Origin: a virus
Lineage: Duplodnaviria > Heunggongvirae > Uroviricota > Caudoviricetes
Direction: 5' to 3' (one strand)
IMG/VR virus record: IMGVR_UViG_2718217795_000002
Span: 1-41,292 of that record
Length of the DNA: 41,292 nt
The position numbers and the translations under genes are program-made. Under the pieces are notes generated by a model. That model had not been told where the DNA came from and did not search any database. It saw nothing but the letters and a program-made list of their open reading frames with translations. This document shows positions 1-29,507 of the stretch, piece by piece. Each line of letters starts with the position of its first letter. Positions within the stretch are counted from its first letter, which is position 1.

Positions 1-1248
1 ATGGCACTGAATATTCCATTCAGAAATGCGTACTATCGTTTTGCATCCAGTTACTCATTTCTCTTTTTTATTTCCTGGTCGCTGTGGTGGTCGTTATACG
101 CTATTTGGCTGAAAGGACATCTAGGATTAACAGGGACGGAATTAGGTACACTTTATTCGGTCAACCAGTTTACCAGCATTCTATTTATGATGTTCTACGG
201 CATCGTTCAGGATAAACTCGGTCTGAAGAAACCGCTCATCTGGTGTATGAGTTTCATTCTGGTCTTGACCGGACCGTTTATGATTTACGTTTATGAACCG
301 TTACTGCAAAGCAATTTTTCTGTAGGTCTAATTCTGGGGGCGCTCTTTTTTGGCCTGGGGTATCTGGCGGGATGCGGTTTGCTTGACAGCTTCACCGAAA
401 AAATGGCGCGAAATTTTCATTTCGAATATGGAACAGCGCGCGCCTGGGGATCTTTTGGCTATGCTATTGGCGCGTTCTTTGCCGGTATATTTTTTAGTAT
501 CAGTCCCCATATCAACTTCTGGTTGGTCTCGCTATTTGGCGCTGTATTTATGATGATCAACATGCGTTTTAAAGATAAGGATCACCAGTGCATAGCGGCG
601 GATGCGGGAGGGGTAAAAAAAGAGGATTTTATCGCAGTTTTCAAGGATCGAAACTTCTGGGTTTTTGTCATATTTATTGTGGGGACGTGGTCTTTCTATA
701 ACATTTTTGATCAACAACTCTTTCCTGTCTTTTATGCAGGTTTATTCGAATCACACGATGTAGGAACGCGCCTGTATGGTTATCTCAACTCATTCCAGGT
801 GGTACTCGAAGCGCTGTGCATGGCGATTATTCCTTTCTTTGTGAATCGGGTAGGGCCAAAAAATGCATTACTTATCGGTGTTGTGATTATGGCGTTGCGT
901 ATCCTTTCCTGCGCGTTGTTCGTTAACCCCTGGATTATTTCATTAGTGAAGCTGTTACATGCCATTGAGGTTCCACTTTGTGTCATATCCGTCTTCAAAT
1001 ACAGCGTGGCAAACTTTGATAAGCGCCTGTCGTCGACGATCTTTCTGATTGGTTTTCAAATTGCCAGTTCGCTTGGGATTGTGCTGCTTTCAACGCCGAC
1101 TGGGATACTCTTTGACCACGCAGGCTACCAGACAGTTTTCTTCGCAATTTCGGGTATTGTCTGCCTGATGTTGCTATTTGGCATTTTCTTCCTGAGTAAA
1201 AAACGCGAGCAAATAGTTATGGAAACGCCTATACCTTCAGCAATATAG
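1..1248 (+). CDS. cscB: Sucrose:H+ symporter, MFS/LacY family (CscB-like), 415 aa
   Basis: Full-length ORF; multi-TM hydrophobic profile; N-terminus MALNIPFRNAYYRFASSYSFLFF matches my recollection of E. coli CscB; csc locus is known to lie next to argW/dsd. Confidence 0.8.
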   Translation: MALNIPFRNAYYRFASSYSFLFFISWSLWWSLYAIWLKGHLGLTGTELGTLYSVNQFTSILFMMFYGIVQDKLGLKKPLIWCMSFILVLTGPFMIYVYEPLLQSNFSVGLILGALFFGLGYLAGCGLLDSFTEKMARNFHFEYGTARAWGSFGYAIGAFFAGIFFSISPHINFWLVSLFGAVFMMINMRFKDKDHQCIAADAGGVKKEDFIAVFKDRNFWVFVIFIVGTWSFYNIFDQQLFPVFYAGLFESHDVGTRLYGYLNSFQVVLEALCMAIIPFFVNRVGPKNALLIGVVIMALRILSCALFVNPWIISLVKLLHAIEVPLCVISVFKYSVANFDKRLSSTIFLIGFQIASSLGIVLLSTPTGILFDHAGYQTVFFAISGIVCLMLLFGIFFLSKKREQIVMETPIPSAI

Positions 1249-1327
1249 ACGTAAACTTTTTCCGGTTGTTGTCGATATCTCCATATCCCTCAACCGGAAA
1301 ATAATAATACAAAAATGCTTAGCCCAA

Positions 1328-1564
1328 CTAATAATCACCTAATCCAAACGCCTCATTCATGTTCTGGTACAGTCGCTCAAATGTACTCCGGATACGCGGT
1401 TCGCTGATTTCCAGGACATTGTCGTCATTCAGCGACCTGTCCCGAGTATCACGGGCCTGCGAATTCATCAAGGAATGCATTGCAGAGTGAAGTATCGAGT
1501 CACGCCATATTTCGCTATCAGGATTCTGTATGATGGTTACATCGCCCGGCCCAGGGCTGTTTAG
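1328..1564 (-). pseudogene. Open reading frame of about 78 codons with no start codon; likely 3' fragment of a truncated chromosomal gene between cscB and the prophage junction
   Basis: Minus-strand frame open from 1564 to stop at 1328-1330 (ends ...ERLYQNMNEAFGLGDY*), no in-frame start of adequate length. Confidence 0.3.
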
Positions 1565-1689
1565 TCATCAGCGCTTTCTGACAGTGCTGAGATTTCAACC
1601 TGTTGCAGTAAAAATGAGTAGATATAGGGCAAGTGTGCTGCCAAACCCATCTTTTACGGGGTGAAGGTAGATATTGTTAGAAGGGTATC

Positions 1690-1704
1690 TGGTGTCCCCT
1701 GCAG
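1690..1704. repeat. attR core: 15-bp copy (tggtgtcccctgcag) of the argW 3' end
   Basis: Exact 15-bp match to 40210-40224; flanking bases differ on both sides. Confidence 0.8.
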
Positions 1705-1777
1705 ACATCTACTTGAAGCGGCAGGGGGTTGATTGGAATGGTGTTTTTTAGATGTGATAAATATTTTACCCGCTATT

Positions 1778-1978
1778 TTACCCATTGGCGCGGCTTAAGA
1801 GCTTATTTTTGAATTCACAATGGTCACGATATAACCATCTTGCTCGACCGTGGATAACTTTGGCTTTTGGCAGGTCGCCGGACTTAATCCGGTCATAGAT
1901 GAAGGTTTTACCAAAGCCAGTATCGGCCATGATGAATTTCAAATCAACCAGTGAATCAGGCTGTAGTTCGTGTTGCAT
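1778..1978 (-). CDS. torI: Excisionase-like / AlpA-family DNA-binding protein TorI, 66 aa
   Basis: 66-aa ORF immediately inside attR; sequence MQHELQPDSLVDLKFIMADTGFGKTF... recalled as E. coli KplE1 TorI. Confidence 0.8.
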   Translation of the reverse strand: MQHELQPDSLVDLKFIMADTGFGKTFIYDRIKSGDLPKAKVIHGRARWLYRDHCEFKNKLLSRANG

Positions 1979-2021
1979 GAGTGCTATCTCCGAATAGGGA
2001 ATCGAACCTGCAAATCAGGCA

Positions 2022-2043
2022 ATAAAAAACCGCATTGATGCGG
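2022..2043 (-). terminator. Rho-independent terminator of the leftward early operon (stem ccgca/tgcgg, T-run on minus strand)
   Basis: Plus strand aaaaaaccgcattgatgcgg; on the minus strand a hairpin followed by TTTTTT, downstream of the ORF ending at 2103. Confidence 0.5.
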
Positions 2044-2102
2044 CGATGTTATGTCTGGATATATTGAGAAATGAACAGGCCTCATCGAGTGTGAGGCTGT
2101 GG

Positions 2103-2474
2103 TTAGTCATTGCGTAACTCGCTAATTCTTTTGTAAGTCTCTGGTGCTTTGTTTCCGTGTATCTTCATTTCTGACTTCAACAGAGCAACGAGGGAATCCC
2201 ATTCGTTGAGGATGCCTTTGAATGCCGGAACGCGCTTTGCAACCTTGTCGAATGAATCTCTGATTTCTGGAATCTGCTCGACAAGCGCAACGCATCGTCG
2301 GAAATCGGCTGCGTCATGTGGAGCGCCGAAGTGATGACCATAGATATTCTTTTTCAGTCCACATGCGATTGAGGCAAGAGTTGCGCTACTGATGCCGACA
2401 TCGCCAGTCGATTGCCATTTCAAAACCTTCATAGCCAAATCTGACATTTCTTGTCTCCAATAAAAAACCGCCAT
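2103..2474 (-). CDS. Hypothetical phage protein, 123 aa
   Basis: ORF in the co-directional minus-strand operon; start overlaps stop of the upstream small ORF (TGATG); alternative start at Met10 with a GGAG SD. Confidence 0.6.
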   Translation of the reverse strand: MAVFYWRQEMSDLAMKVLKWQSTGDVGISSATLASIACGLKKNIYGHHFGAPHDAADFRRCVALVEQIPEIRDSFDKVAKRVPAFKGILNEWDSLVALLKSEMKIHGNKAPETYKRISELRND

Positions 2475-2641
2475 CAGGCGGCATGGTGTTCTTTCAGTTC
2501 TTCAATTCGAATATTGGTTACGTCTGCATGCGCTATCTGCGCCCATATCATCCAGTGGTCATAGCAGTCGTTGATGTTCTCTGCTTCGATAACTCTGTTG
2601 AATGGCTCTCCATTCCATTCACCTGTCACCCGGAAGTGCAT
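2474..2641 (-). CDS. Small hypothetical protein, 55 aa (below ORF-track cutoff)
   Basis: ATG at 2641 preceded by GGAG with 7-nt spacer; stop overlaps next start; fills the gap between flanking genes. Confidence 0.3.
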   Translation of the reverse strand: MHFRVTGEWNGEPFNRVIEAENINDCYDHWMIWAQIAHADVTNIRIEELKEHHAA

Positions 2642-2713
2642 TTATCATCTCCATAAAACAAAACTCGCCGTAGCGAGTTCAGATAAAAGAAATCCCCGCG
2701 AATGCGAGGATTG

Positions 2714-2998
2714 TTATTCAGTGCCGATATTCACCTTTATCGCGAACACCTTTACCGGTTTATCGCCGAAGTGGGGATGTGTGATTGTCTTGATTTCATA
2801 TCCGTCATACGGAATATCAATTCTGCGGCTGGAATCGTCGCGCTTCGGATATCCCTTTGTGATAATCAGACGGTCATACTTTCGGAACATAATTCGCTTA
2901 TTCCAATAGTCATTACACAGGCGATACTCTTCCGTTTTCTCTCCGCGAATCATGGCATCGAAGTATTCACCTTTAACGGCAAGTTGCAGGTTAGCCAC
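2714..2998 (-). CDS. Hypothetical protein, possibly ASCH/PUA-like fold, 94 aa
   Basis: ORF in operon; family assignment is from weak recollection only. Confidence 0.6.
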   Translation of the reverse strand: MANLQLAVKGEYFDAMIRGEKTEEYRLCNDYWNKRIMFRKYDRLIITKGYPKRDDSSRRIDIPYDGYEIKTITHPHFGDKPVKVFAIKVNIGTE

Positions 2999-3611
2999 GG
3001 TTAACCTCCTGCGGCGGCTCCGGTAGCGGCATCCAGTGAGTTATTTCATCGGCAAAGATATCTGAGTTAAGTTCCGTCCAACTATTCCAATACCCAGATT
3101 CATCCCACCATTTAACCTCGACATGCTCGCCGTCGGTCACTAACACATCAGCATACCCTTTCGGCATTCGCTCACTACAGCTTATCCAACTATCCGGAGT
3201 TACCGGAGAGTTGCCAGATAGCTCGTTCAACTTGTAAGTTTGGCTTACAGGTTCGGCACCATGAAGCATGGCGGCGCGGCAGGCATTCCAGCCTCTCACC
3301 TCTGCAATAGCGGCAACAGCATCGACCGCGTACATGCTAAGAGGGTTAGGCATTGTTTTTTCTTCAGGTACTACTGGCACTGGAGGGGCGGCATAAACAG
3401 GAATAACGTCCGCTTGCTCTTTATTGCTTTCATCCGTTAAAGCCCAGAATAATTTCCCGGCCGGATGTTTGAAAATATAAGCAACTGGATCTGCTTCCAG
3501 CGATGCCAGAGCAATTTCATAAGCACGGCGCTCAATATTGTCTCGAACGTCCAAGCTGCCTATGCGCTCTTTGATTTCTTTAATCAGTTCTTTGTCGGTA
3601 AAAGTGGTCAT
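2991..3611 (-). CDS. DUF551-domain phage protein, about 206 aa
   Basis: C-terminal WISCSERMPKGY...WMPLPEPP motif typical of DUF551; start moved to ATG at 3611 with AAGGAG SD (track ORF extends to 3641). Confidence 0.7.
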   Translation of the reverse strand: MTTFTDKELIKEIKERIGSLDVRDNIERRAYEIALASLEADPVAYIFKHPAGKLFWALTDESNKEQADVIPVYAAPPVPVVPEEKTMPNPLSMYAVDAVAAIAEVRGWNACRAAMLHGAEPVSQTYKLNELSGNSPVTPDSWISCSERMPKGYADVLVTDGEHVEVKWWDESGYWNSWTELNSDIFADEITHWMPLPEPPQEVNRG

Positions 3612-3612
3612 A

Positions 3613-4320
3613 TCACTCTCCTTTGATGCGAATGCCAGCAAGCCAGTTTCTTATGCCGATATATTCAGCGTTCCTGAAACCGCTTTTTACATATATAAAT
3701 GGCAAGCGAAGATTGTGACCATTGACTGCCAGGTAGTCTTTACAACCCTGTTCGGTGAAACAGCAGGTAACGAATTCATCAATATCTTTCACAGCAACGC
3801 GCCGCCATTTTTCTGGTGGCTCTCGAAAGTTTTCGTGAAGTAGTTCGAGACGACGACTTTGGCGTTTATTGGCTTCATTGCCATCTTCATCAACCCAGAC
3901 AATCCGGTCATAGTCATAATCAGCATCAACAACGATTTCGCGCTTTTGATACACACAAAACATAGGGTCTGACGTTATTCGATTATCCTGTGTTCGAATA
4001 TTTTCACCGATGATGCCAAACGAATCTGGTGCAGAGTTTGTCTGCAACTCTTCGATACGTTCAGCCATAGCAGCACACTCTTCAAAGTTGCTTAATTCTT
4101 TTCGCTCCCATTCGGCGCATTGTTTTTCCAGTTCTGCTATGCGCTTACTCCCATCCGAGATAACGCCCTCGTAATACTCACGCTGCTCGTTGAGTTTTGA
4201 TTCAAGTTCACCGAACTTACGGACAAGATATTCAGCGTTTGTTTCGTTAACCTTTAAATCTCGTGGGATGCATTGACCTTTCAGAAATCCATCCATCTCA
4301 ATTAGTGACATTTGTTTCAT
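3613..4320 (-). CDS. Ea22-like coiled-coil protein, about 235 aa
   Basis: Coiled-coil N-terminal region plus C-terminal domain as in lambdoid Ea22 proteins; track start at 4338 is GTG; ATG at 4320 forms an ATGA overlap with the upstream small ORF. Confidence 0.6.
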
Positions 4321-4481
4321 TTCTTCCCACTCCGCCACATCGCATTCAGATATTTGTTTTGATTTACTGATGGAAAAGAATTTCTCTTAAGCAATTCCTC
4401 TCTCGATGGCATTGGCTTTACGCGTTGGCGAATAATCATTTCTGCCGGAAGAATGCCGGGATTGTATGCAAGTCCTCTCAT
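4317..4481 (-). CDS. Small hypothetical protein, 54 aa (below ORF-track cutoff)
   Basis: ATGA start/stop overlaps with both neighbours (4478-4481 and 4317-4320). Confidence 0.3.
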
Positions 4482-4759
4482 GATTTACTCTCCACGAACT
4501 GGTCAACGGCCATGCTAAGTGACACACCTAAAGTTTCGATATGCTGCTGAATATCCTGTAGCGTCTGCGCCTGAGATAACAGTATTTCACGGTTGCATAA
4601 CTCTTTAACCAGATGCTCAAACTTGCTGTAATAACCGATACGGCTTAGTGTTTCTTTCCCTGCATTCTCGCCTTCTTTGATAATTCCTCTTTCGCTAAGA
4701 ATCAGGTCGTGTTTGGTGCCGGTAATAACGTATTTTCCGAGGTCGATGTTTAGCTTCAT
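4478..4759 (-). CDS. Hypothetical protein, 93 aa
   Basis: ORF in the co-directional operon; no family recognised. Confidence 0.55.
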
Positions 4760-4775
4760 TGTTAATTACTCCATG

Positions 4776-5090
4776 TTAATTTATTCGTATGCCTGCTCTT
4801 TCTTCATCGAGTTTTTTTAGCTTGTATCGCATAGCTCTTACTGAATAAATTGAGCGGCAGGTTGCAATTGCTATTTCTTCTGCGGAGAACTTACCGAAAA
4901 GTGATACTTCGGCTCTTGTCCATCGTCTTCCACGAAGTCGGCTAACAATGTCAGCGCCAATCCTTGTTGCTTTCGCCATTACTGCTTTTTCAGTCCTTTC
5001 CAGTTTTTCAGCGATAACTTCAACTGGCATTGTCGCCGCTACTTCGCGCAAGAAATCGACTTCCCATTTCTCCCATGGAGTCTTTTTCAT
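4776..5090 (-). CDS. Hypothetical protein with two Trp-containing SANT/Myb-like helix repeats (putative DNA-binding), 104 aa
   Basis: Two internal repeats (WEKWEVDFLREVAA... and WTRAEVSLFGKFSAEEIA...) read by eye. Confidence 0.55.
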   Translation of the reverse strand: MKKTPWEKWEVDFLREVAATMPVEVIAEKLERTEKAVMAKATRIGADIVSRLRGRRWTRAEVSLFGKFSAEEIAIATCRSIYSVRAMRYKLKKLDEERAGIRIN

Positions 5091-5101
5091 AGGCGATACC
5101 G

Positions 5102-5590
5102 TTATTTGATAAGAAGTGAAGGTTTCCCAACTTTGAGTTGAGCACCGGGGATATTTATTCCTGCTTTTAGTTGTTGTTTGATTGCCAGTTTGTCGGCTTT
5201 AATTGTCGTTTCGAACTCAACGTATTCAGGAGGAAGGGCGCTTGAGTCGAAGATTTCTACAGTTTCTGACGGTTTGCGGATTGTTACCTGGTGAATACCT
5301 GCTCGAATCTTTTTCTTGCCAACCATTTCAAGCGATGACGCTATATACGCCATAATGCTGTTAATCTTATTTTGAATTACTGCGGCTCGCTCATTTAGTG
5401 ACTTTGCCTCTTCCTTGAGGCGTTCAGCATAACCAGATTCATTTTTAATAATGGCAAGAAGTTGCTCTATTTTATCGGTAAATTCTCCTTCCATGCCTTC
5501 TATTGTGTCAGCAATCATCTCTGGTTCTAAATCTGAATCCATCAATTTTGCGTATTCATTGGCAATTTCATACAGTTTGCTCACTAGCAA
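5102..5590 (-). CDS. Gp157-like coiled-coil protein (recombination-module accessory), 162 aa
   Basis: Directly downstream of recT; family assignment from recollection, moderate. Confidence 0.6.
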   Translation of the reverse strand: MLVSKLYEIANEYAKLMDSDLEPEMIADTIEGMEGEFTDKIEQLLAIIKNESGYAERLKEEAKSLNERAAVIQNKINSIMAYIASSLEMVGKKKIRAGIHQVTIRKPSETVEIFDSSALPPEYVEFETTIKADKLAIKQQLKAGINIPGAQLKVGKPSLLIK

Positions 5591-25254: not shown

Positions 25255-25425
25255 ATGTTTGTCAAACCTGTTAAAGGGCGGTCAGTGCCTGACCCTGCCC
25301 GCGGCGACCTTTTGCCCGCCGAAGGGCGAAATGTTGACGAGAACAACTACTGGCTGCGCCGTGAAGCAGCGGGTGATATCCGGCGCGTGAATAAAAAGGT
25401 GAACACCGATGACGATAAGCTTTAA
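25255..25425 (+). CDS. Small conserved tail-module protein (DUF2635-like), 56 aa (below ORF-track cutoff)
   Basis: ATG 25255 with GAGGA SD; fills the gap before the sheath gene and overlaps its start; MFVKP...GRSVPDPARGD recalled as conserved in Mu-like tail modules. Confidence 0.5.
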   Translation: MFVKPVKGRSVPDPARGDLLPAEGRNVDENNYWLRREAAGDIRRVNKKVNTDDDKL

Positions 25426-26905
25426 CACCATTCCATCGAATACGCTGGTTCCGCTGTTTTATGCGGAAATGGATAACCAGGCGGCGAATACTGCACAGGA
25501 CAGCGGAGCATCGCTGCTGATTGGTCATGCCAGTAACGGTGCAGAGATTGTTGCCAACAGTCTGGTGTTGATGCCGTCGGCAGACTATGCACGCCAGATT
25601 TGTGGTGCGGGAAGTCAGCTGGCGCGTATGGTCGAGGCTTATCGCCAGACCGACCCGTTTGGTGAGCTGTATGTGATTGCCGTTCCGGAAGCCACAGGCG
25701 CGGCGGCAACGGTTACGCTGACGGTGACCGGGGAAGCAACCGAAAGCGGCGCGGTGAATGTCTATGTGGGACGTACCCGCGTGCAGGCTCCGGTGACCAA
25801 CGGCGATAACGTCACGACGATTGCCAGCAGTATCAAAGATGCCATCAATGCCGTTCCGACTCTGCCGTTTACGGCTTCATCTTCGGCAGGCGTGGTCACA
25901 CTGACCGCGCGTCATAAGGGGCTTTGCGGGAATGAAATTCCTGTCAGCCTCAATTACTACGGCTTTGGTGGGGGCGAAGTGCTGCCAGCGGGCGTACAGA
26001 TTGCCGTGGCGACGGGTACCGCCGGAACGGGTGCTCCGGTTCTCACCGGCGCGGTGGCTGCAATGGCGGATGAGCCGTTTGATTATATCGGCCTGCCGTT
26101 CAACGACACGGCCTCCGTTAACACGCTGGTGACCGAGATGAACGATACCAGCGGTCGCTGGAGCTATGCGCGTCAGCTGTATGGTCATGTGTATACGGCA
26201 AAGATCGGCACGCTGTCAGAACTGGTGACCGCAGGTGACCAGTTTAACCAGCAGCACATTACCCTGGCAGGGTACGAAAAAGAGACCCAGACGCCTGCCG
26301 ACGAGCTGGCGGCAAGCCGTACCGCCCGCGCAGCGGTGTTTATCCGCAACGATCCGGCACGTCCCACGCAGACCGGTGAGCTGGTGGGTATGCTGCCTGC
26401 GCCGAAGGGGAAACGGTTCACGATGACCGAACAACAGACCCTGCTGTCTCATGGCGTGGCAACGGCGTATGTCGAAAGCGGGGTGCTGCGCATTCAGCGT
26501 GATGTCACCACGTACAGGAAAAACGCTTACGGGGTTGCGGATAACAGCTACCTCGACAGCGAGACGCTGCATACCAGTGCCTATGTACTGCGCAAACTGA
26601 AATCCGTCATTACCAGTAAGTACGGGCGTCACAAGCTTGCCAGTGACGGTACCCGCTTTGGTCCCGGTCAGGCGATTGTCACCCCGGCGGTGATCAAAGG
26701 GGAACTGCTGGCAACCTACCGTCAGCTTGAGCGTGCGGGGATCGTGGAAAACTACGAACTGTTTAAGCAGTACCTGGTTGTGGAGCGTGATGCCAGCGAT
26801 CCGAACCGCCTGAACACGCTGTTCCCGCCTGACTATGTTAACCAGTTGCGTGTCTTTGCCGTGGTTAACCAGTTCCGTCTTCAGTATTCAGAGGAGTCCG
26901 CATAA
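25409..26905 (+). CDS. Contractile tail sheath protein (Mu gpL-like), 498 aa
   Basis: Tail sheath family similarity and size. Confidence 0.9.
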   Translation: MTISFNTIPSNTLVPLFYAEMDNQAANTAQDSGASLLIGHASNGAEIVANSLVLMPSADYARQICGAGSQLARMVEAYRQTDPFGELYVIAVPEATGAAATVTLTVTGEATESGAVNVYVGRTRVQAPVTNGDNVTTIASSIKDAINAVPTLPFTASSSAGVVTLTARHKGLCGNEIPVSLNYYGFGGGEVLPAGVQIAVATGTAGTGAPVLTGAVAAMADEPFDYIGLPFNDTASVNTLVTEMNDTSGRWSYARQLYGHVYTAKIGTLSELVTAGDQFNQQHITLAGYEKETQTPADELAASRTARAAVFIRNDPARPTQTGELVGMLPAPKGKRFTMTEQQTLLSHGVATAYVESGVLRIQRDVTTYRKNAYGVADNSYLDSETLHTSAYVLRKLKSVITSKYGRHKLASDGTRFGPGQAIVTPAVIKGELLATYRQLERAGIVENYELFKQYLVVERDASDPNRLNTLFPPDYVNQLRVFAVVNQFRLQYSEESA

Positions 26906-27261
26906 TGGCCCGTATCGGGGGAACCTGTTATTTCAAAATTGACGGTCAGCAGCTATCGCTGACCGGCGGCATTGAGGTGCCCATGAACAGGACGGTCAAT
27001 GATGACATCATCGGCCTGGACGGTTCAGTGGACCGCAAGGAAACTCACCGTGCGCCTTATGTCAAAGGGACCTTCAAGGTGCCGAAGAATTTTCCGGTGA
27101 ACAAAATCACCTCGTCTGATGAGATGACCATCACTGCCGAGCTGGCGAACGGTCAGGTCTATGTACTGTCGTCTGCCTGGCTGCACGGCGAAGCGAACCA
27201 TAATGCCGAAGAAGGCACGGTCGATCTTGAATTCCACGGTGAAGAAGGGGATTACCAGTAA
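26905..27261 (+). CDS. Tail tube protein (Mu gpM-like), 118 aa
   Basis: Position after sheath and family similarity. Confidence 0.85.
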   Translation: MARIGGTCYFKIDGQQLSLTGGIEVPMNRTVNDDIIGLDGSVDRKETHRAPYVKGTFKVPKNFPVNKITSSDEMTITAELANGQVYVLSSAWLHGEANHNAEEGTVDLEFHGEEGDYQ

Positions 27262-27530
27262 TGAAAGAGCTTGAGTTAAAGAAACCGATTACCGCTCATG
27301 GCGAGACACTCTCCGTACTGGAGTTTGATGAGCCCACCGGGAAAGATGTCCGCGAGCTGGGGTATCCCTACCAGATGAATCAGGATGAGTCCGTCAGACT
27401 TCTGGCGCATGTGGTGTCGAAATACATTGTGCGGCTGGCGAAAGTGCCGCAAAGCTCTGTCGACCAGATGTCTCCGGCAGACCTGAATGCAGCGGCGTGG
27501 CTTGTGGCCGGTTTTTTCCTCCAGGCCTGA
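27261..27530 (+). CDS. Tail assembly chaperone (short, zero-frame product), 89 aa
   Basis: Position between tube and tape measure; slippery TTTTTTC near its 3' end. Confidence 0.8.
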   Translation: MKELELKKPITAHGETLSVLEFDEPTGKDVRELGYPYQMNQDESVRLLAHVVSKYIVRLAKVPQSSVDQMSPADLNAAAWLVAGFFLQA

Positions 27531-27679
27531 CGGCTGAATACCTCACTGATCGCTTCTTTGACTGCGCCAGCTACTGGCGCATTAATCCCTTCGAATTGCT
27601 GAATATGCCGATCAGTGAAATTCCCTTGCTGGTCAGTCAGGCAAACAGGATAGAGCAGGAGAAACGCACACATGGCTGA
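27261..27679 (+). CDS. Tail assembly chaperone long form produced by programmed -1 frameshift at T_TTT_TTC (27512-27518), about 139 aa
   Basis: The -1 frame is open from the slip site to 27679 and overlaps the tape-measure start; canonical X_XXY_YYZ heptamer. Confidence 0.55.
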
Positions 27680-29507
27680 ATTTGAGCTTAAGGCGTTGAT
27701 CACCGGTGTCGACAGGCTTTCTCCCGCGCTGTCGAAAATGCAAAAGAAAATCCGGGGATTTAAACGCCAGGCGGAAGAAGCGTCACAGGGTGGGCTGGCG
27801 CTTGGTGGCGGACTGGCTGCGGGTCTGACGCTTTCCCTGAAATCTTATGCCGATCAGGAAAACGCCGCCACCGGGCTGAAAGTCGCCATGATGGATGCGA
27901 ACGGCGAGGTTGGAAAGAGCTTTCAGGACATCAATAAACTGGCTATTGGCCTGGGTAACCAGCTACCCGGTACAACGGCTGATTTCCAGAACATGATGCA
28001 GATGCTGGTGCGTCAGGGGATCCCGGCAGAAAACATTCTTGGTGGTGTGGGTAAAGCGACAGCTTATCTTGCGGTACAACTGAAAAAAACACCGGAAGCG
28101 GCTGCTGAGTTTGCCGCAAAGATGCAGGATGCTACCGGAACGGCCTCAGAAGACATGATGGGGCTGTTCGACACAATTCAGAAGGCGTTTTATCTGGGCG
28201 TGGACGATACCAACATGTTGTCCTTCTTCACTAAAACCAGCTCTGTTCTGAAGATGGTGAACAAGGACGGTCTTCAGGCTGCACAGAGCCTTGCCCCCAT
28301 CAGCGTCATGATGGATCAGATGGGGATGAACGGGGAGTCGGCAGGTAACGCCCTGCGAAAAGTTATCCAGTCCGGATTAAGCGTTAAGAAAATCAGGGAC
28401 GTCAATAAAATCATGGCCCGCCAGAAACTCGGGGTACAGCTCGATTTTACTGACGGCAAAGGGAGTTTTGGCGGTCTTGATAACATGTTCAGGCAACTGG
28501 CAAAGCTGCGAAAACTGACCGACGTTAAACGAACTGGTGTACTTAAGGCAATATTTGGTGATGATGCCGAAACCCTTCAGGTGGTCAATGCACTAATCGA
28601 TAAAGGAAAGGATGGCTACGATCAGATCCAGCAGAAGATGAATAAACAGGCCAGCCTGAATAAACGTGTTCAGGCACAGCTTGGTACGCTGTCCAACCTG
28701 TGGGAGGCAATGACGGGGACCGCAACTAACGGCCTTGCGGCTATTGGCGGCGCATTTTCTGGTGACGCTAAAAATATCACGCAATGGCTGGGGGAGTTAG
28801 GGGAAAAATTCACGAAGTTTGCGGATGAAAATCCCCGGGTTATTCGCGGCGTCGTCGGGCTTGCTGCCGGTCTTGCGATTCTGAAACTGGGATTGATGGG
28901 CGTGGGCAGTGCCATCAGTATTGTCAGCAGGATCATGTCGATGACGCCGATTGGCATGATTGCGACGGCGATAGCCCTGGCTGCGGGATTAATTATCACT
29001 AACTGGGATGTTGTCGGACCTTATTTTAAGAAACTCTGGGAAACCATTGGTCCTTATTTTGAGGCTGGCTGGGAACTCCTTAAGAAAGTTTTTGCCTGGT
29101 CGCCGCTGGGGATGGTGATCAATAACTGGGGGCCGGTTGTAAAGTGGTTTCAGGATATGTGGGATAAGCTGAAGCCAATTATTGAGTGGCTTACCGACAG
29201 TTCCGGTGACACGGTCGATGCCATTAACTCGGCGCAGTGGGGTGCGGGTGCTTATGATGCTTATGGGACGGGAATACCGGCGCGGGGATACACACCTTAT
29301 CCGGCGGTGGATCCGGCTCAGTCAAACAACGCCTCTAATGCCACAGGCCCGAATCCCTTCATGATTAACAAAGCTTCTGCGCCAAAAGTTGATGGTGAGA
29401 TCAAGGTATCTTTTGTGAATTCGCCTCCGGGTATGCGGGTTATGGAAACGCGATCCAGCGGTTTTGATGTCAGCCATGATGTTGGCTATACGCGCTTTGG
29501 CAGGTAA
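27672..29507 (+). CDS. Tail tape measure protein, 611 aa
   Basis: AGGAG SD; long alpha-helical protein with a hydrophobic internal segment; position. Confidence 0.9.
   Translation: MAEFELKALITGVDRLSPALSKMQKKIRGFKRQAEEASQGGLALGGGLAAGLTLSLKSYADQENAATGLKVAMMDANGEVGKSFQDINKLAIGLGNQLPGTTADFQNMMQMLVRQGIPAENILGGVGKATAYLAVQLKKTPEAAAEFAAKMQDATGTASEDMMGLFDTIQKAFYLGVDDTNMLSFFTKTSSVLKMVNKDGLQAAQSLAPISVMMDQMGMNGESAGNALRKVIQSGLSVKKIRDVNKIMARQKLGVQLDFTDGKGSFGGLDNMFRQLAKLRKLTDVKRTGVLKAIFGDDAETLQVVNALIDKGKDGYDQIQQKMNKQASLNKRVQAQLGTLSNLWEAMTGTATNGLAAIGGAFSGDAKNITQWLGELGEKFTKFADENPRVIRGVVGLAAGLAILKLGLMGVGSAISIVSRIMSMTPIGMIATAIALAAGLIITNWDVVGPYFKKLWETIGPYFEAGWELLKKVFAWSPLGMVINNWGPVVKWFQDMWDKLKPIIEWLTDSSGDTVDAINSAQWGAGAYDAYGTGIPARGYTPYPAVDPAQSNNASNATGPNPFMINKASAPKVDGEIKVSFVNSPPGMRVMETRSSGFDVSHDVGYTRFGR

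What the first reader, a model, noticed from the sequence alone, without database searches (positions are those of the whole stretch)
27497..27679. Programmed -1 ribosomal frameshift in the tail assembly chaperone
A canonical slippery heptamer T_TTT_TTC (27512-27518) lies 10 nt before the chaperone stop. The -1 frame stays open for a further 54 codons and ends overlapping the tape-measure start, the conserved G/GT arrangement of tailed phages.
Basis: partly seen in the sequence, partly recalled or inferred. Interest (0 to 1): 0.45.

Follow-up and report, generated by a model that had tools for sequence, protein, structure and literature searches.

The report
Tail chaperone −1 frameshift, P2 E/E+E′ type
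This is the standard "slip back one base" signal that tailed phages use to make a short and a long version of their tail-assembly chaperone; it is real and strongly conserved, but it is an ordinary feature that public annotations of this phage group have left out.

Summary
T_TTT_TTC (27512-27518) is in X_XXY_YYZ register with the 89-aa chaperone ORF (27261-27530). The −1 frame then runs for 53 codons and stops at 27677-27679, 8 nt into the tape-measure gene (ATG 27672).

The window is an SfV/SfI/SfII-type phage with a Mu-like contractile tail. The gene order is sheath, tube, chaperone (PF10109), tape measure.

Comparative evidence is strong:
- All 26 distinct relatives (chaperone identity down to about 36%, including Derxia and a Methylococcales MAG) keep T_TTT_TT(C/T) at the same Gly/Arg/Asn-Phe-Phe codons.
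- All have a homologous 50-59 aa −1 ORF ending at the tape-measure start.
- Their 0-frame tails differ in sequence and in length (9-63 nt).
- The −1 frame is under purifying selection (pN/pS 0.14/0.83). It has no conserved start codon and no Shine-Dalgarno.
- A profile of the fusion aligns end to end with P2 gpE+E′, slip site on slip site.

No stimulatory RNA structure sits at canonical spacing. A clade-specific 8-bp hairpin 45 nt downstream is unexplained.

Verdict: an unannotated member of the well-known G/GT (P2 E/E+E′) frameshift. Interest is low, apart from correcting annotation in about 17% of complete E. coli genomes.

The parts
26905..27261 (+). Tail tube gene (118 aa). It is the upstream neighbour and the inferred binding partner of the T part.
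   Evidence: PF10618 Tail_tube, E=3.3e-33. Annotated as tail tube protein / Mup40-like in relatives.
27261..27530 (+). 0-frame tail assembly chaperone ORF, the 'G'/gpE equivalent. 89 aa, 9.9 kDa.
   Evidence: PF10109 Phage_TAC_7, E=1.9e-16. phrog_166 'tail protein', E=7e-24. Mass.
27512..27518 (+). Slippery heptamer T_TTT_TTC. It covers the third base of Gly84 GGT, then Phe85 TTT and Phe86 TTC.
   Evidence: Register verified. Conserved as T_TTT_TTC or T_TTT_TTT in 26/26 distinct relatives. The preceding codon is GGT, CGT or AAT, so its third base is always T. GGT-TTT-TTC-CCT are 4 of only 12 codon-invariant columns among 55. The site aligns on P2's GGT TTT TTG slip site.
27518..27679 (+). -1 frame extension, the 'T'/E' equivalent. 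53 codons plus TGA, reached only by shifting.
   Evidence: Translation. pN/pS 0.139/0.827 against EPP-1 and dN/dS 0.26 against AH07; the other two frames give about 1-2. Invariant residues A103, P110, A128, R130 and near-invariant W106 across 16 diverged fusions. No conserved start codon or SD. phrog_32181, E=4e-40.
27261..27679 (+). Predicted fusion product: 27261-27518 joined to 27518-27679. 139 aa, 15.8 kDa, junction ...WLVAGFF|PPGLTAEY...
   Evidence: hhalign against P2 gpE+E' gives prob 86.5%, E=4.5e-6, residues 4-131 against 7-136. The identical 139-aa protein is encoded directly in four assemblies that carry a 1-nt insertion at the slip site.
27657..27661 (+). AGGAG Shine-Dalgarno for the tape-measure gene. 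It lies inside the 3' end of the -1 ORF, 10 nt before the ATG at 27672.
   Evidence: Read directly from the sequence. The assignment as an SD is inference.
27672..29507 (+). Tape measure protein gene (611 aa). Its start overlaps the -1 ORF stop by 8 nt (ATGGCTGA).
   Evidence: PF10145 PhageMin_Tail, E=1.3e-26. The same 8-nt overlap occurs between P2 E' and T.
27563..27581 (+). 8-bp GC-rich hairpin or palindrome TGCGCCAG-CTA-CTGGCGCA inside the T ORF, starting 45 nt after the heptamer. Clade-specific. Whether it has any role in the frameshift is unproven.
   Evidence: Part of a fold with z=-4.6. Stem synonymous positions are invariant in 15 distinct SfV-like sequences while loop and flanks vary. 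Absent from more distant clades. Single copy in the window.
27524..27535 (+). Weak 4-bp hairpin GGCC-UGAC-GGCU starting 5 nt after the heptamer, with the 0-frame stop in its loop. Probably insignificant.
   Evidence: The +3..+45 segment has z=-0.16 in the window and a mean z of -0.48 over 20 lineages.

Best explanation
Gene 27261-27530 encodes the tail assembly chaperone of an SfV-type phage with a Mu-like contractile tail.

Most ribosomes read GGU UUU UUC CUC CAG GCC UGA and release an 89-aa protein. A minority slip back one base while tRNA-Phe occupies both the P site (UUU) and the A site (UUC). Both tRNAs re-pair with UUU codons in the -1 frame. Translation then continues as CCU CCA GGC... 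for 53 more codons and ends at the UGA that overlaps the tape-measure start codon. The result is a 139-aa fusion.

By homology with P2 gpE/gpE+E' and analogy with lambda gpG/gpGT, the shared N-terminal part would coat the tape-measure protein. The -1-encoded C-terminal part would recruit tail-tube subunits so that the tube polymerises around the tape measure. Neither protein would end up in the virion.

What is shown here: the anatomy, the conservation, coding selection on the -1 frame, the lack of independent initiation signals, and homology to P2 E+E'.

What is inferred: that the shift happens on the ribosome, its efficiency, and the binding partners.
For: - Register and ORF geometry.
- Family and gene order sheath-tube-chaperone-tape measure.
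- Ten phage loci and 25 genome loci give 26 distinct sequences with chaperone identity from 100% down to about 36%. They include Derxia gummosa and a Methylococcales MAG. All keep T_TTT_TTC/T at the G/R/N-F-F codons, and all have a homologous 50-59 aa -1 ORF that ends at the tape-measure start, from 1 nt before its first base to 13 nt into the gene. The 0-frame tail after the heptamer varies from 9 to 63 nt and is not conserved.
- The -1 frame has pN 0.139 against pS 0.827 (window vs EPP-1). The other two frames give ratios of about 1-2.
- The T part has invariant residues across 16 diverged fusions.
- 17 of 26 sequences have no ATG/GTG/TTG in the -1 frame ahead of the conserved part, and none has an SD.
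- Synonymous sites of GGT-TTT-TTC are invariant, although only 12 of 55 comparable codon columns are.
- hhalign of the fusion profile against P2 gpE+E' gives E=4.5e-6 over both parts, with VAGFF on VVGFL. The P2 RefSeq record annotates E+E' as a joined CDS with a -1 frameshift at that site, and shows the same 8-nt overlap with the tape-measure gene.
- In E. coli reporter assays U_UU.Y is the second most shift-prone A-site motif, and U_UU.U_UU.C reaches 7.6% with a strong stimulator (PMC4066793).
- The conserved tail-gene frameshift is established for lambda, P2, FluMu and others (PMC5009743, PMC2628397, PMC3091744).
Against: - There is no protein-level evidence for this phage.
- The bare heptamer is weak in reporter assays: UUUUUUC gives 0.12% without a stimulator.
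- I found no conserved stimulatory structure at 5-9 nt spacing and no conserved upstream SD-like element. The native efficiency therefore cannot be predicted.
- The homology to P2 E+E' has moderate statistical support only (probability 86.5%, single-sequence template).
- A run of six or seven T could in principle also yield the same protein through RNA polymerase slippage.
Confidence: 0.88

Rival explanations
1. The same G-T fusion is made by transcriptional slippage. RNA polymerase adds one extra U in the T6 run (T7 in relatives), and ribosomes then read the edited mRNA without shifting.
For: The site is a homopolymer run. U7 and A7 are under-represented in E. coli genes in all three frames, which PMC4066793 attributes partly to transcriptional slippage. 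Genomic 1-nt insertions at this exact run (T7, or GGG before T6) occur in public assemblies and encode the identical fusion, so the run is indel-prone at some level. The protein product would be indistinguishable from a ribosomal frameshift product.
Against: The run is only 6 T here and 7 T in other clades. From general knowledge, efficient RNA polymerase slippage in E. coli needs longer runs. The homologous P2 site is TTTTTTG, and its record annotates a translational -1 frameshift. The motif is always in exact X_XXY_YYZ register with cognate re-pairing. That register is also forced by the conserved Phe-Phe, so it is weak discrimination.
Confidence: 0.07
2. The -1 ORF is an independent small gene (60 aa from GTG 27497). 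One phage record, NCBI 'hypothetical protein' entries and PHROG 32181 all treat it this way.
For: A GTG at 27497 opens a 60-aa ORF. vB_EcoM-689R6 annotates it as a separate CDS. The 60-aa protein is called on about 1000 contigs. phrog_32181 matches at E=4e-40.
Against: No SD precedes the GTG. 17 of 26 distinct relatives have no ATG/GTG/TTG in that frame between the upstream stop and 60 nt past the heptamer, and none of the candidate starts has an SD. Conservation in the -1 frame begins right at the heptamer. The ORF aligns with the E' part of P2 gpE+E'.
Confidence: 0.02
3. The open -1 frame and the T run are coincidental, and the stretch 27531-27671 is a non-coding intergenic spacer, as PGAP/RefSeq implicitly treats it.
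For: RefSeq and most GenBank records leave a 141-nt unannotated gap.
Against: There is strong purifying selection in the -1 frame only. The protein motifs are conserved down to about 36% chaperone identity. Synonymous positions of the heptamer are invariant.
Confidence: 0.01

Closest known systems
Phage P2 gpE / gpE+E' (programmed -1 frameshift in the FETUD tail operon; NC_001895 P2p25/P2p26)
   Same: - The gene lies between the tail tube gene and the tape-measure gene.
- Product sizes are 91/142 aa in P2 and 89/139 aa here.
- The slip site is GGT TTT TTG in P2 and GGT TTT TTC here, at codons 84-86 of both.
- The -1 ORF stop overlaps the tape-measure ATG by 8 nt in both.
- The fusion proteins align over both parts (hhalign E=4.5e-6).
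- Neither has a significant downstream structure: P2 z=+0.24, window z=-0.16.
(PMC3091744)
   Different: - The last base of the heptamer differs (C rather than G), so the A-site codon is Phe UUC rather than Leu UUG.
- The 0-frame tail after the slip site is 3 codons here and 5 in P2.
- Sequence identity is very low; pairwise BLAST is not significant.
- The rest of the tail is Mu-like, not P2-like.
- The P2 case is annotated as a frameshift in its reference record and cited as such in the literature. This one is not demonstrated.
Phage lambda gpG / gpGT
   Same: The logic is the same. A chaperone ORF sits upstream of the tape-measure gene, low-level -1 slippage occurs near its 3' end, and the fusion carries a domain that recruits the major tail or tube protein. 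Neither product is in the virion (PMC5009743).
   Different: - The slippery sequence is different (G_GGA_AAG).
- Lambda has a non-contractile tail.
- I detected no sequence similarity.
- Lambda T is longer.
- Lambda's functional details (G binds gpH, T binds gpV, ratio about 30:1) are experimentally shown for lambda only.
Mu gp41 / FluMu gp41 (Mu-like tail assembly chaperone)
   Same: The tail module is the same: sheath, tube, gp41 position, tape measure, DNA circularisation protein, gp44-like hub. The Pfam family name covers 'E, or 41 or 14'. NCBI names the fused form 'mu-like prophage FluMu gp41 family protein'. Mu gp41 is not resolved in virion cryo-EM (PMC11915804).
   Different: Mu itself is reported to use a -2 shift (PMC2628397, PMC5009743), and its gp41 is 144 aa with no detectable pairwise similarity here. 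The second ORF in this window is in the -1 frame.

Membership tests
G/GT-type tail assembly chaperone frameshift (lambda G/GT, P2 E/E+E') | Two overlapping ORFs located between the major tail/tube gene and the tape-measure gene | tested here: met
   Tube 26905-27261, chaperone 27261-27530, -1 ORF to 27679, tape measure from 27672.
G/GT-type tail assembly chaperone frameshift (lambda G/GT, P2 E/E+E') | The upstream ORF is a recognised tail assembly chaperone | tested here: met
   PF10109 Phage_TAC_7, 60.3 bits against a cut-off of 25.
G/GT-type tail assembly chaperone frameshift (lambda G/GT, P2 E/E+E') | [quoted passage not shown] | tested here: met
   T_TTT_TTC in register. Present in 26/26 distinct relatives. 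Synonymous sites are invariant.
G/GT-type tail assembly chaperone frameshift (lambda G/GT, P2 E/E+E') | The second ORF is coding, conserved, and lacks its own translation start | tested here: met
   pN/pS 0.14/0.83 in the -1 frame only. Conserved motifs. No start codon in 17/26 sequences and no SD in any.
G/GT-type tail assembly chaperone frameshift (lambda G/GT, P2 E/E+E') | Both the short and the fused protein are made in a fixed ratio, and the fusion is required for tail assembly | not testable with these tools
   Needs western blot or mass spectrometry, and genetics.
G/GT-type tail assembly chaperone frameshift (lambda G/GT, P2 E/E+E') | The chaperone binds the tape measure, the T part binds the tube protein, and both are absent from virions | not testable with these tools
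   Only analogy is available: lambda (PMC5009743), and Mu gp41 not resolved in virions.
P2 gpE+E' homologues | Sequence homology over both the E and the E' parts, with the slip site at the equivalent position | tested here: met
   hhalign prob 86.5%, E=4.5e-6, 119 columns, residues 4-131 against 7-136, VAGFF on VVGFL. Support is moderate because the template is a single sequence. Pfam has no model that detects the T part.
Mu-type -2 frameshift | The second ORF lies in the +1/-2 frame relative to the chaperone | tested here: not met
   The conserved downstream ORF is in the -1 frame. The +1 frame is full of stops.
Stimulated -1 PRF signals (dnaX / IS3 type) | A stable hairpin or pseudoknot 5-9 nt downstream, and/or an SD-like element 6-17 nt upstream of the heptamer | tested here: not met
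   Window +3..+45 has z=-0.16, and the mean z is -0.48 over 20 lineages. There is no consensus structure in the SfIV/ST64B clade. No SD-like motif upstream, from the sequence. Rfam finds nothing. The only strong hairpin starts 45 nt downstream.
Transcriptional slippage sites | A long homopolymer run, typically 8-9 or more A/T in E. coli (general knowledge) | tested here: not met
   The run is 6 T in the window and 7 T in the SfIV/ST64B clade. This is not formally excluded.

The most novel reading that the evidence does not exclude
In the SfV-like subclade, the strictly conserved 8-bp GC hairpin at 27563-27581 is a functional RNA element. It starts 45 nt past the slip site, inside the -1 ORF, so only shifted ribosomes ever reach it.

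It could be an unusually distant modulator of frameshift efficiency. It could also be a pause or stability element that sets the level of the fusion protein, or the coupling of its termination to tape-measure initiation. Either would be a kind of control not described for G/GT-type frameshifts.
Probability: 0.1. Interest if true: 0.4.

Novelty: new member of a known kind. Interest (0 to 1): 0.17.

Why it matters
The main value is annotation hygiene.

- This prophage module is present in 918 of 5,426 complete E. coli genomes, and in the Shigella serotype-converting phages SfI, SfII and SfV.
- None of the 11 annotated records inspected shows the fusion: ten phage records and one RefSeq E. coli chromosome. 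None of the 26 phage records under the T-part match lists it either.
- The −1 ORF is either left as a 141-nt "intergenic" gap or called a stand-alone hypothetical protein, with its own PHROG of unknown function.
- Recognising it as the E′/T part of a frameshifted chaperone removes a false orphan family. It also gives the correct gene product for anyone engineering these tails or building frameshift predictors.

The family also provides a clean comparative dataset. One slip site is conserved from Enterobacteriaceae to Betaproteobacteria with no canonical stimulator. That bears on an open question: how P2-type U6N sites reach useful efficiencies when the bare heptamers give about 0.1% in reporters.

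Biologically it adds nothing unexpected.

Tried and rejected
- **Downstream stimulator.** The 102 nt after the heptamer fold with z=-4.6. The 10-bp outer stem is not kept in EPP-1 or AH07. The SfIV/P27/ST64B/YeP1 clade has no consensus structure. The canonical +3..+45 segment is unremarkable across 20 lineages. I reject it as a general stimulator.
- **Terminator-like hairpin plus T run at 27498-27518.** This is at chance level (1 found against a mean of 1.0 in shuffles). Its stem depends on an Ala codon third base that varies among relatives.
- **Antisense ORF 27380-27703 (107 aa).** It is interrupted by stops in most relatives, so it is spurious.
- **Independent initiation at GTG 27497.** Rejected.
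- **Viral-contig scan.** It returned 80 identical copies and gave no comparative information.
- **Pfam and NCBIfam on the T part.** No family matched. A profile search of PDB sequences found no solved relative.
- **Rfam.** Only a sub-threshold chance hit.
- **Palindrome as a repeated binding site.** It is a single copy.
- **Literature.** Xu, Hendrix and Duda 2004 is not held, so I could not check whether SfV was already in their list. The SfI and SfIV genome papers do not contain the word "frameshift".
- **Structure prediction.** I did not run it. The useful alignment consists of sequences from other loci, which the tool would not accept. The result would not have changed the verdict.

Full report
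**1. Observation**

The ORF 27261-27530 (89 aa) ends ...GCC GGT TTT TTC CTC CAG GCC TGA. TTTTTTC occupies 27512-27518 and is split T|TTT|TTC by the 0 frame, which is a true X_XXY_YYZ heptamer.

The 0-frame stop is at 27528-27530, with 9 nt between heptamer and stop. Reading from 27518 in the −1 frame gives PPGLTAEYLTDRFFDCASYWRINPFELLNMPISEIPLLVSQANRIEQEKRTHG* (53 codons plus stop). The TGA at 27677-27679 lies 8 nt inside the next gene, whose ATG is at 27672 (ATGGCTGA).

The start coordinate of the finding (27497) is only the first GTG in that frame. On the coding strand this is the only in-register heptamer in the window whose −1 ORF runs past the 0-frame stop. The minus-strand look-alikes sit in antisense ORFs within real genes.

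**2. Context**

The window is 98-99% identical over this stretch to the Shigella/E. coli phages SfV, SfI, SfII, SKA5 and vB_EcoM-689R6. These phages have a Mu-like contractile tail. Pfam gives this gene order:
- sheath, 25409-26905
- tube, 26905-27261 (PF10618)
- tail assembly chaperone, 27261-27530 (PF10109, "E, or 41 or 14")
- tape measure, 27672-29507 (PF10145)
- DNA-circularisation protein
- gp44-like hub

So the ORF pair sits exactly where the conserved tail-chaperone frameshift is expected.

**3. Comparative test**

I collected ten phage loci and 25 loci from a one-genome-per-species collection. Together they give 26 distinct sequences. Chaperone identity to the window falls from 100% to about 36%. 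Hosts range from Enterobacteriaceae to Derxia gummosa (Betaproteobacteria) and a Methylococcales MAG.

- **Slip site.** Every sequence has T_TTT_TTC or T_TTT_TTT, in register, at the same conserved Phe-Phe.
- **Preceding codon.** It encodes Gly, Arg or Asn but always ends in T: GGT 20, CGT 3, AAT 3.
- **−1 ORF.** Every sequence has one of 50-59 codons, clearly homologous (motif F/Y-D/N-x-A-x-Y/F-W-R/K-x-N/A-P … A-x-R-I). It ends at the tape-measure start, from 1 nt before its first base to 13 nt into the gene.
- **0-frame tail.** After the heptamer it varies from 9 to 63 nt and shows no conservation.
- **Selection.** Nei-Gojobori counts over the stretch beyond the 0-frame stop give pN 0.139 and pS 0.827 in the −1 frame (window vs EPP-1), and dN/dS 0.26 against AH07. 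The other two frames give ratios of about 1-2.
- **Synonymous constraint.** Among 15 distinct SfV-like sequences, 55 codon columns have an invariant, degenerate amino acid. Only 12 never change codon. Four of these are the consecutive GGT-TTT-TTC-CCT of the slip site. The heptamer is therefore selected at nucleotide level, not only as Phe-Phe.

**4. Rivals**

*Independent translation of the −1 ORF.* One phage record, many NCBI "hypothetical protein" entries and PHROG 32181 treat it this way. The evidence does not support it. 17 of 26 sequences have no ATG/GTG/TTG in that frame ahead of the conserved part, and no candidate start has a Shine-Dalgarno.

*Other features on or around the site.* The antisense 107-aa ORF is broken in relatives. 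A terminator-like hit just upstream of the T run is at chance level. Rfam finds nothing.

*Transcriptional slippage at the T run.* This would give the same protein and cannot be excluded by sequence. However, the run is only six T here and seven in other clades, and the homologous P2 site is annotated as a translational −1 shift.

**5. Comparison with known systems**

The P2 reference record annotates E (91 aa) and E+E′ (142 aa) as a joined CDS with a −1 frameshift. The P2 sequence there reads GTC GGT TTT TTG, and the E′ stop overlaps the tape-measure gene T by 8 nt.

The window has 89 and 139 aa, GCC GGT TTT TTC at the same codon numbers (84-86), and the same 8-nt overlap.

Pairwise BLAST is not significant. 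A profile of 16 diverged fusion proteins aligns with P2 gpE+E′ over residues 4-131 against 7-136 (hhalign probability 86.5%, E=4.5e-6), and places VAGFF on VVGFL.

The literature held here describes the frameshift as conserved in long-tailed dsDNA phages, including lambda, P2 and FluMu, with Mu itself using −2 (PMC2628397, PMC5009743, PMC3091744). This locus is the −1 type, so it is like P2 and FluMu rather than Mu. Mu gp41 is not seen in virion cryo-EM (PMC11915804), which fits a chaperone role.

**6. Mechanism**

*Shown:* the geometry, and cognate re-pairing. tRNA-Phe on UUU and on UUC can both re-pair with UUU after a 1-nt backward slip.

*From the literature:* in E. coli reporters U_UU.Y is the second most shift-prone A-site motif. 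UUUUUUC gives 0.12% without a stimulator, 0.89% with the IS911 stimulator and 7.6% with the IS3 pseudoknot. UUUUUUG, P2's heptamer, gives 0.118% without a stimulator (PMC4066793). P2 efficiency is stated to be 2- to 3-fold higher than lambda's (PMC5009743). Native context must therefore matter.

*Stimulator search:* I found no stimulator at canonical spacing. The +3..+45 segment has z=−0.16 in the window, a mean z of −0.48 over 20 lineages, and +0.24 in P2. The efficiency here is unknown.

*Inferred, by analogy with lambda:* the shared N-terminal part coats the tape measure, and the −1-encoded part recruits tube subunits.

*Read from the sequence:* the 3′ end of the −1 ORF carries the AGGAG (27657-27661) that serves the tape-measure ATG. 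Its assignment as an SD is inference.

**7. An unexplained detail**

TGCGCCAG-CTA-CTGGCGCA (27563-27581) forms an 8-bp hairpin of about −13.7 kcal/mol inside the T ORF, starting 45 nt after the heptamer.

In the 15 distinct SfV-like sequences, the stem's synonymous positions (TGC, GCC, the C of TAC/TTC, CGC) never change. The loop third position and the flanking codons vary freely. More distant clades lack the hairpin, and it occurs only once in the window.

It is too far downstream to be a canonical stimulator, and only shifted ribosomes traverse it. I cannot say what it does.

**8. Novelty and verdict**

The kind of element is textbook. This member appears to be unannotated:
- None of the ten phage records whose annotation I inspected, and none of the 26 phage records under the T-part match, lists a joined CDS.
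- RefSeq/PGAP gives "phage tail assembly protein" followed by a 141-nt gap.
- The module is present in 918 of 5,426 complete E. coli genomes.
- The SfI and SfIV genome papers do not mention a frameshift.
- I could not read Xu et al. 2004 to see whether SfV was already listed.

The exact fusion protein does exist in NCBI (KDU22203.1). It is there only because four assemblies carry a 1-nt insertion at the slip site.

Noticed in passing
window 27563-27581: Perfect 8-bp palindrome/hairpin TGCGCCAG-CTA-CTGGCGCA inside the -1 ORF. In 15 distinct SfV-like sequences the stem's synonymous sites are invariant while the loop and flanking codons vary. It is absent from the SfIV/ST64B/P27/Yersinia/Mixta clades. 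Function unknown.
   Followed up: partly
L120 851-860; L122 and L123 851-860 (equivalent to window 27510-27518): Four public assemblies carry a 1-nt insertion exactly at the slip site: GGG TTTTTT in L120, and T7 in L122 and L123. L121 (same 139-aa gene call) was not read. In all four the 139-aa fusion is called as an ordinary gene (NCBI KDU22203.1, 'mu-like prophage FluMu gp41 family protein'). These are either homopolymer sequencing errors or genuine indel mutants that would make only the fusion.
   Followed up: yes
window 27518-27526: The first three codons after the shift encode Pro-Pro-Gly. From general knowledge this is a strong EF-P-dependent stalling motif. It is present only in the closest relatives (PPG); others have PQG, PSG, PAG or PRD, so it is probably incidental.
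   Followed up: partly
window 27497-27679: Databases hold this -1 ORF as a free-standing 60-63 aa 'hypothetical protein' on about 1000 contigs, with its own PHROG (32181, unknown function). That family is almost certainly an annotation artefact of the unrecognised frameshift.
   Followed up: yes
L009 (Salmonella phage 118970_sal3, NC_031940) 1172-5199: In this record the sheath, chaperone and tape-measure genes are each split into several CDS, and the chaperone region has indels that scramble the G/T frames. The record is 77 kb with a second copy of the module. This looks like sequencing or assembly errors, or a degraded prophage.
   Followed up: no
window 27657-27661: The AGGAG Shine-Dalgarno for the tape-measure gene lies within the last codons of the -1 ORF (…EQEKRTHG). 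Part of the conservation of the Glu-rich C-terminus may therefore reflect the downstream gene's ribosome-binding site.
   Followed up: no
L024 1750-1770; L029 1750-1790; L035 1768-1790: Some distant relatives (an uncultured proteobacterium, Derxia, a Methylococcales MAG) do have GC-rich hairpins starting 3-7 nt after the heptamer; L029 gives -21.6 kcal/mol, z=-2.7. A stimulatory hairpin may therefore exist in some lineages of the family although not in this one.
   Followed up: partly
window 27380-27703 (- strand): A 107-aa antisense ORF spans the frameshift region. It is interrupted by stop codons in most relatives and is spurious.
   Followed up: yes
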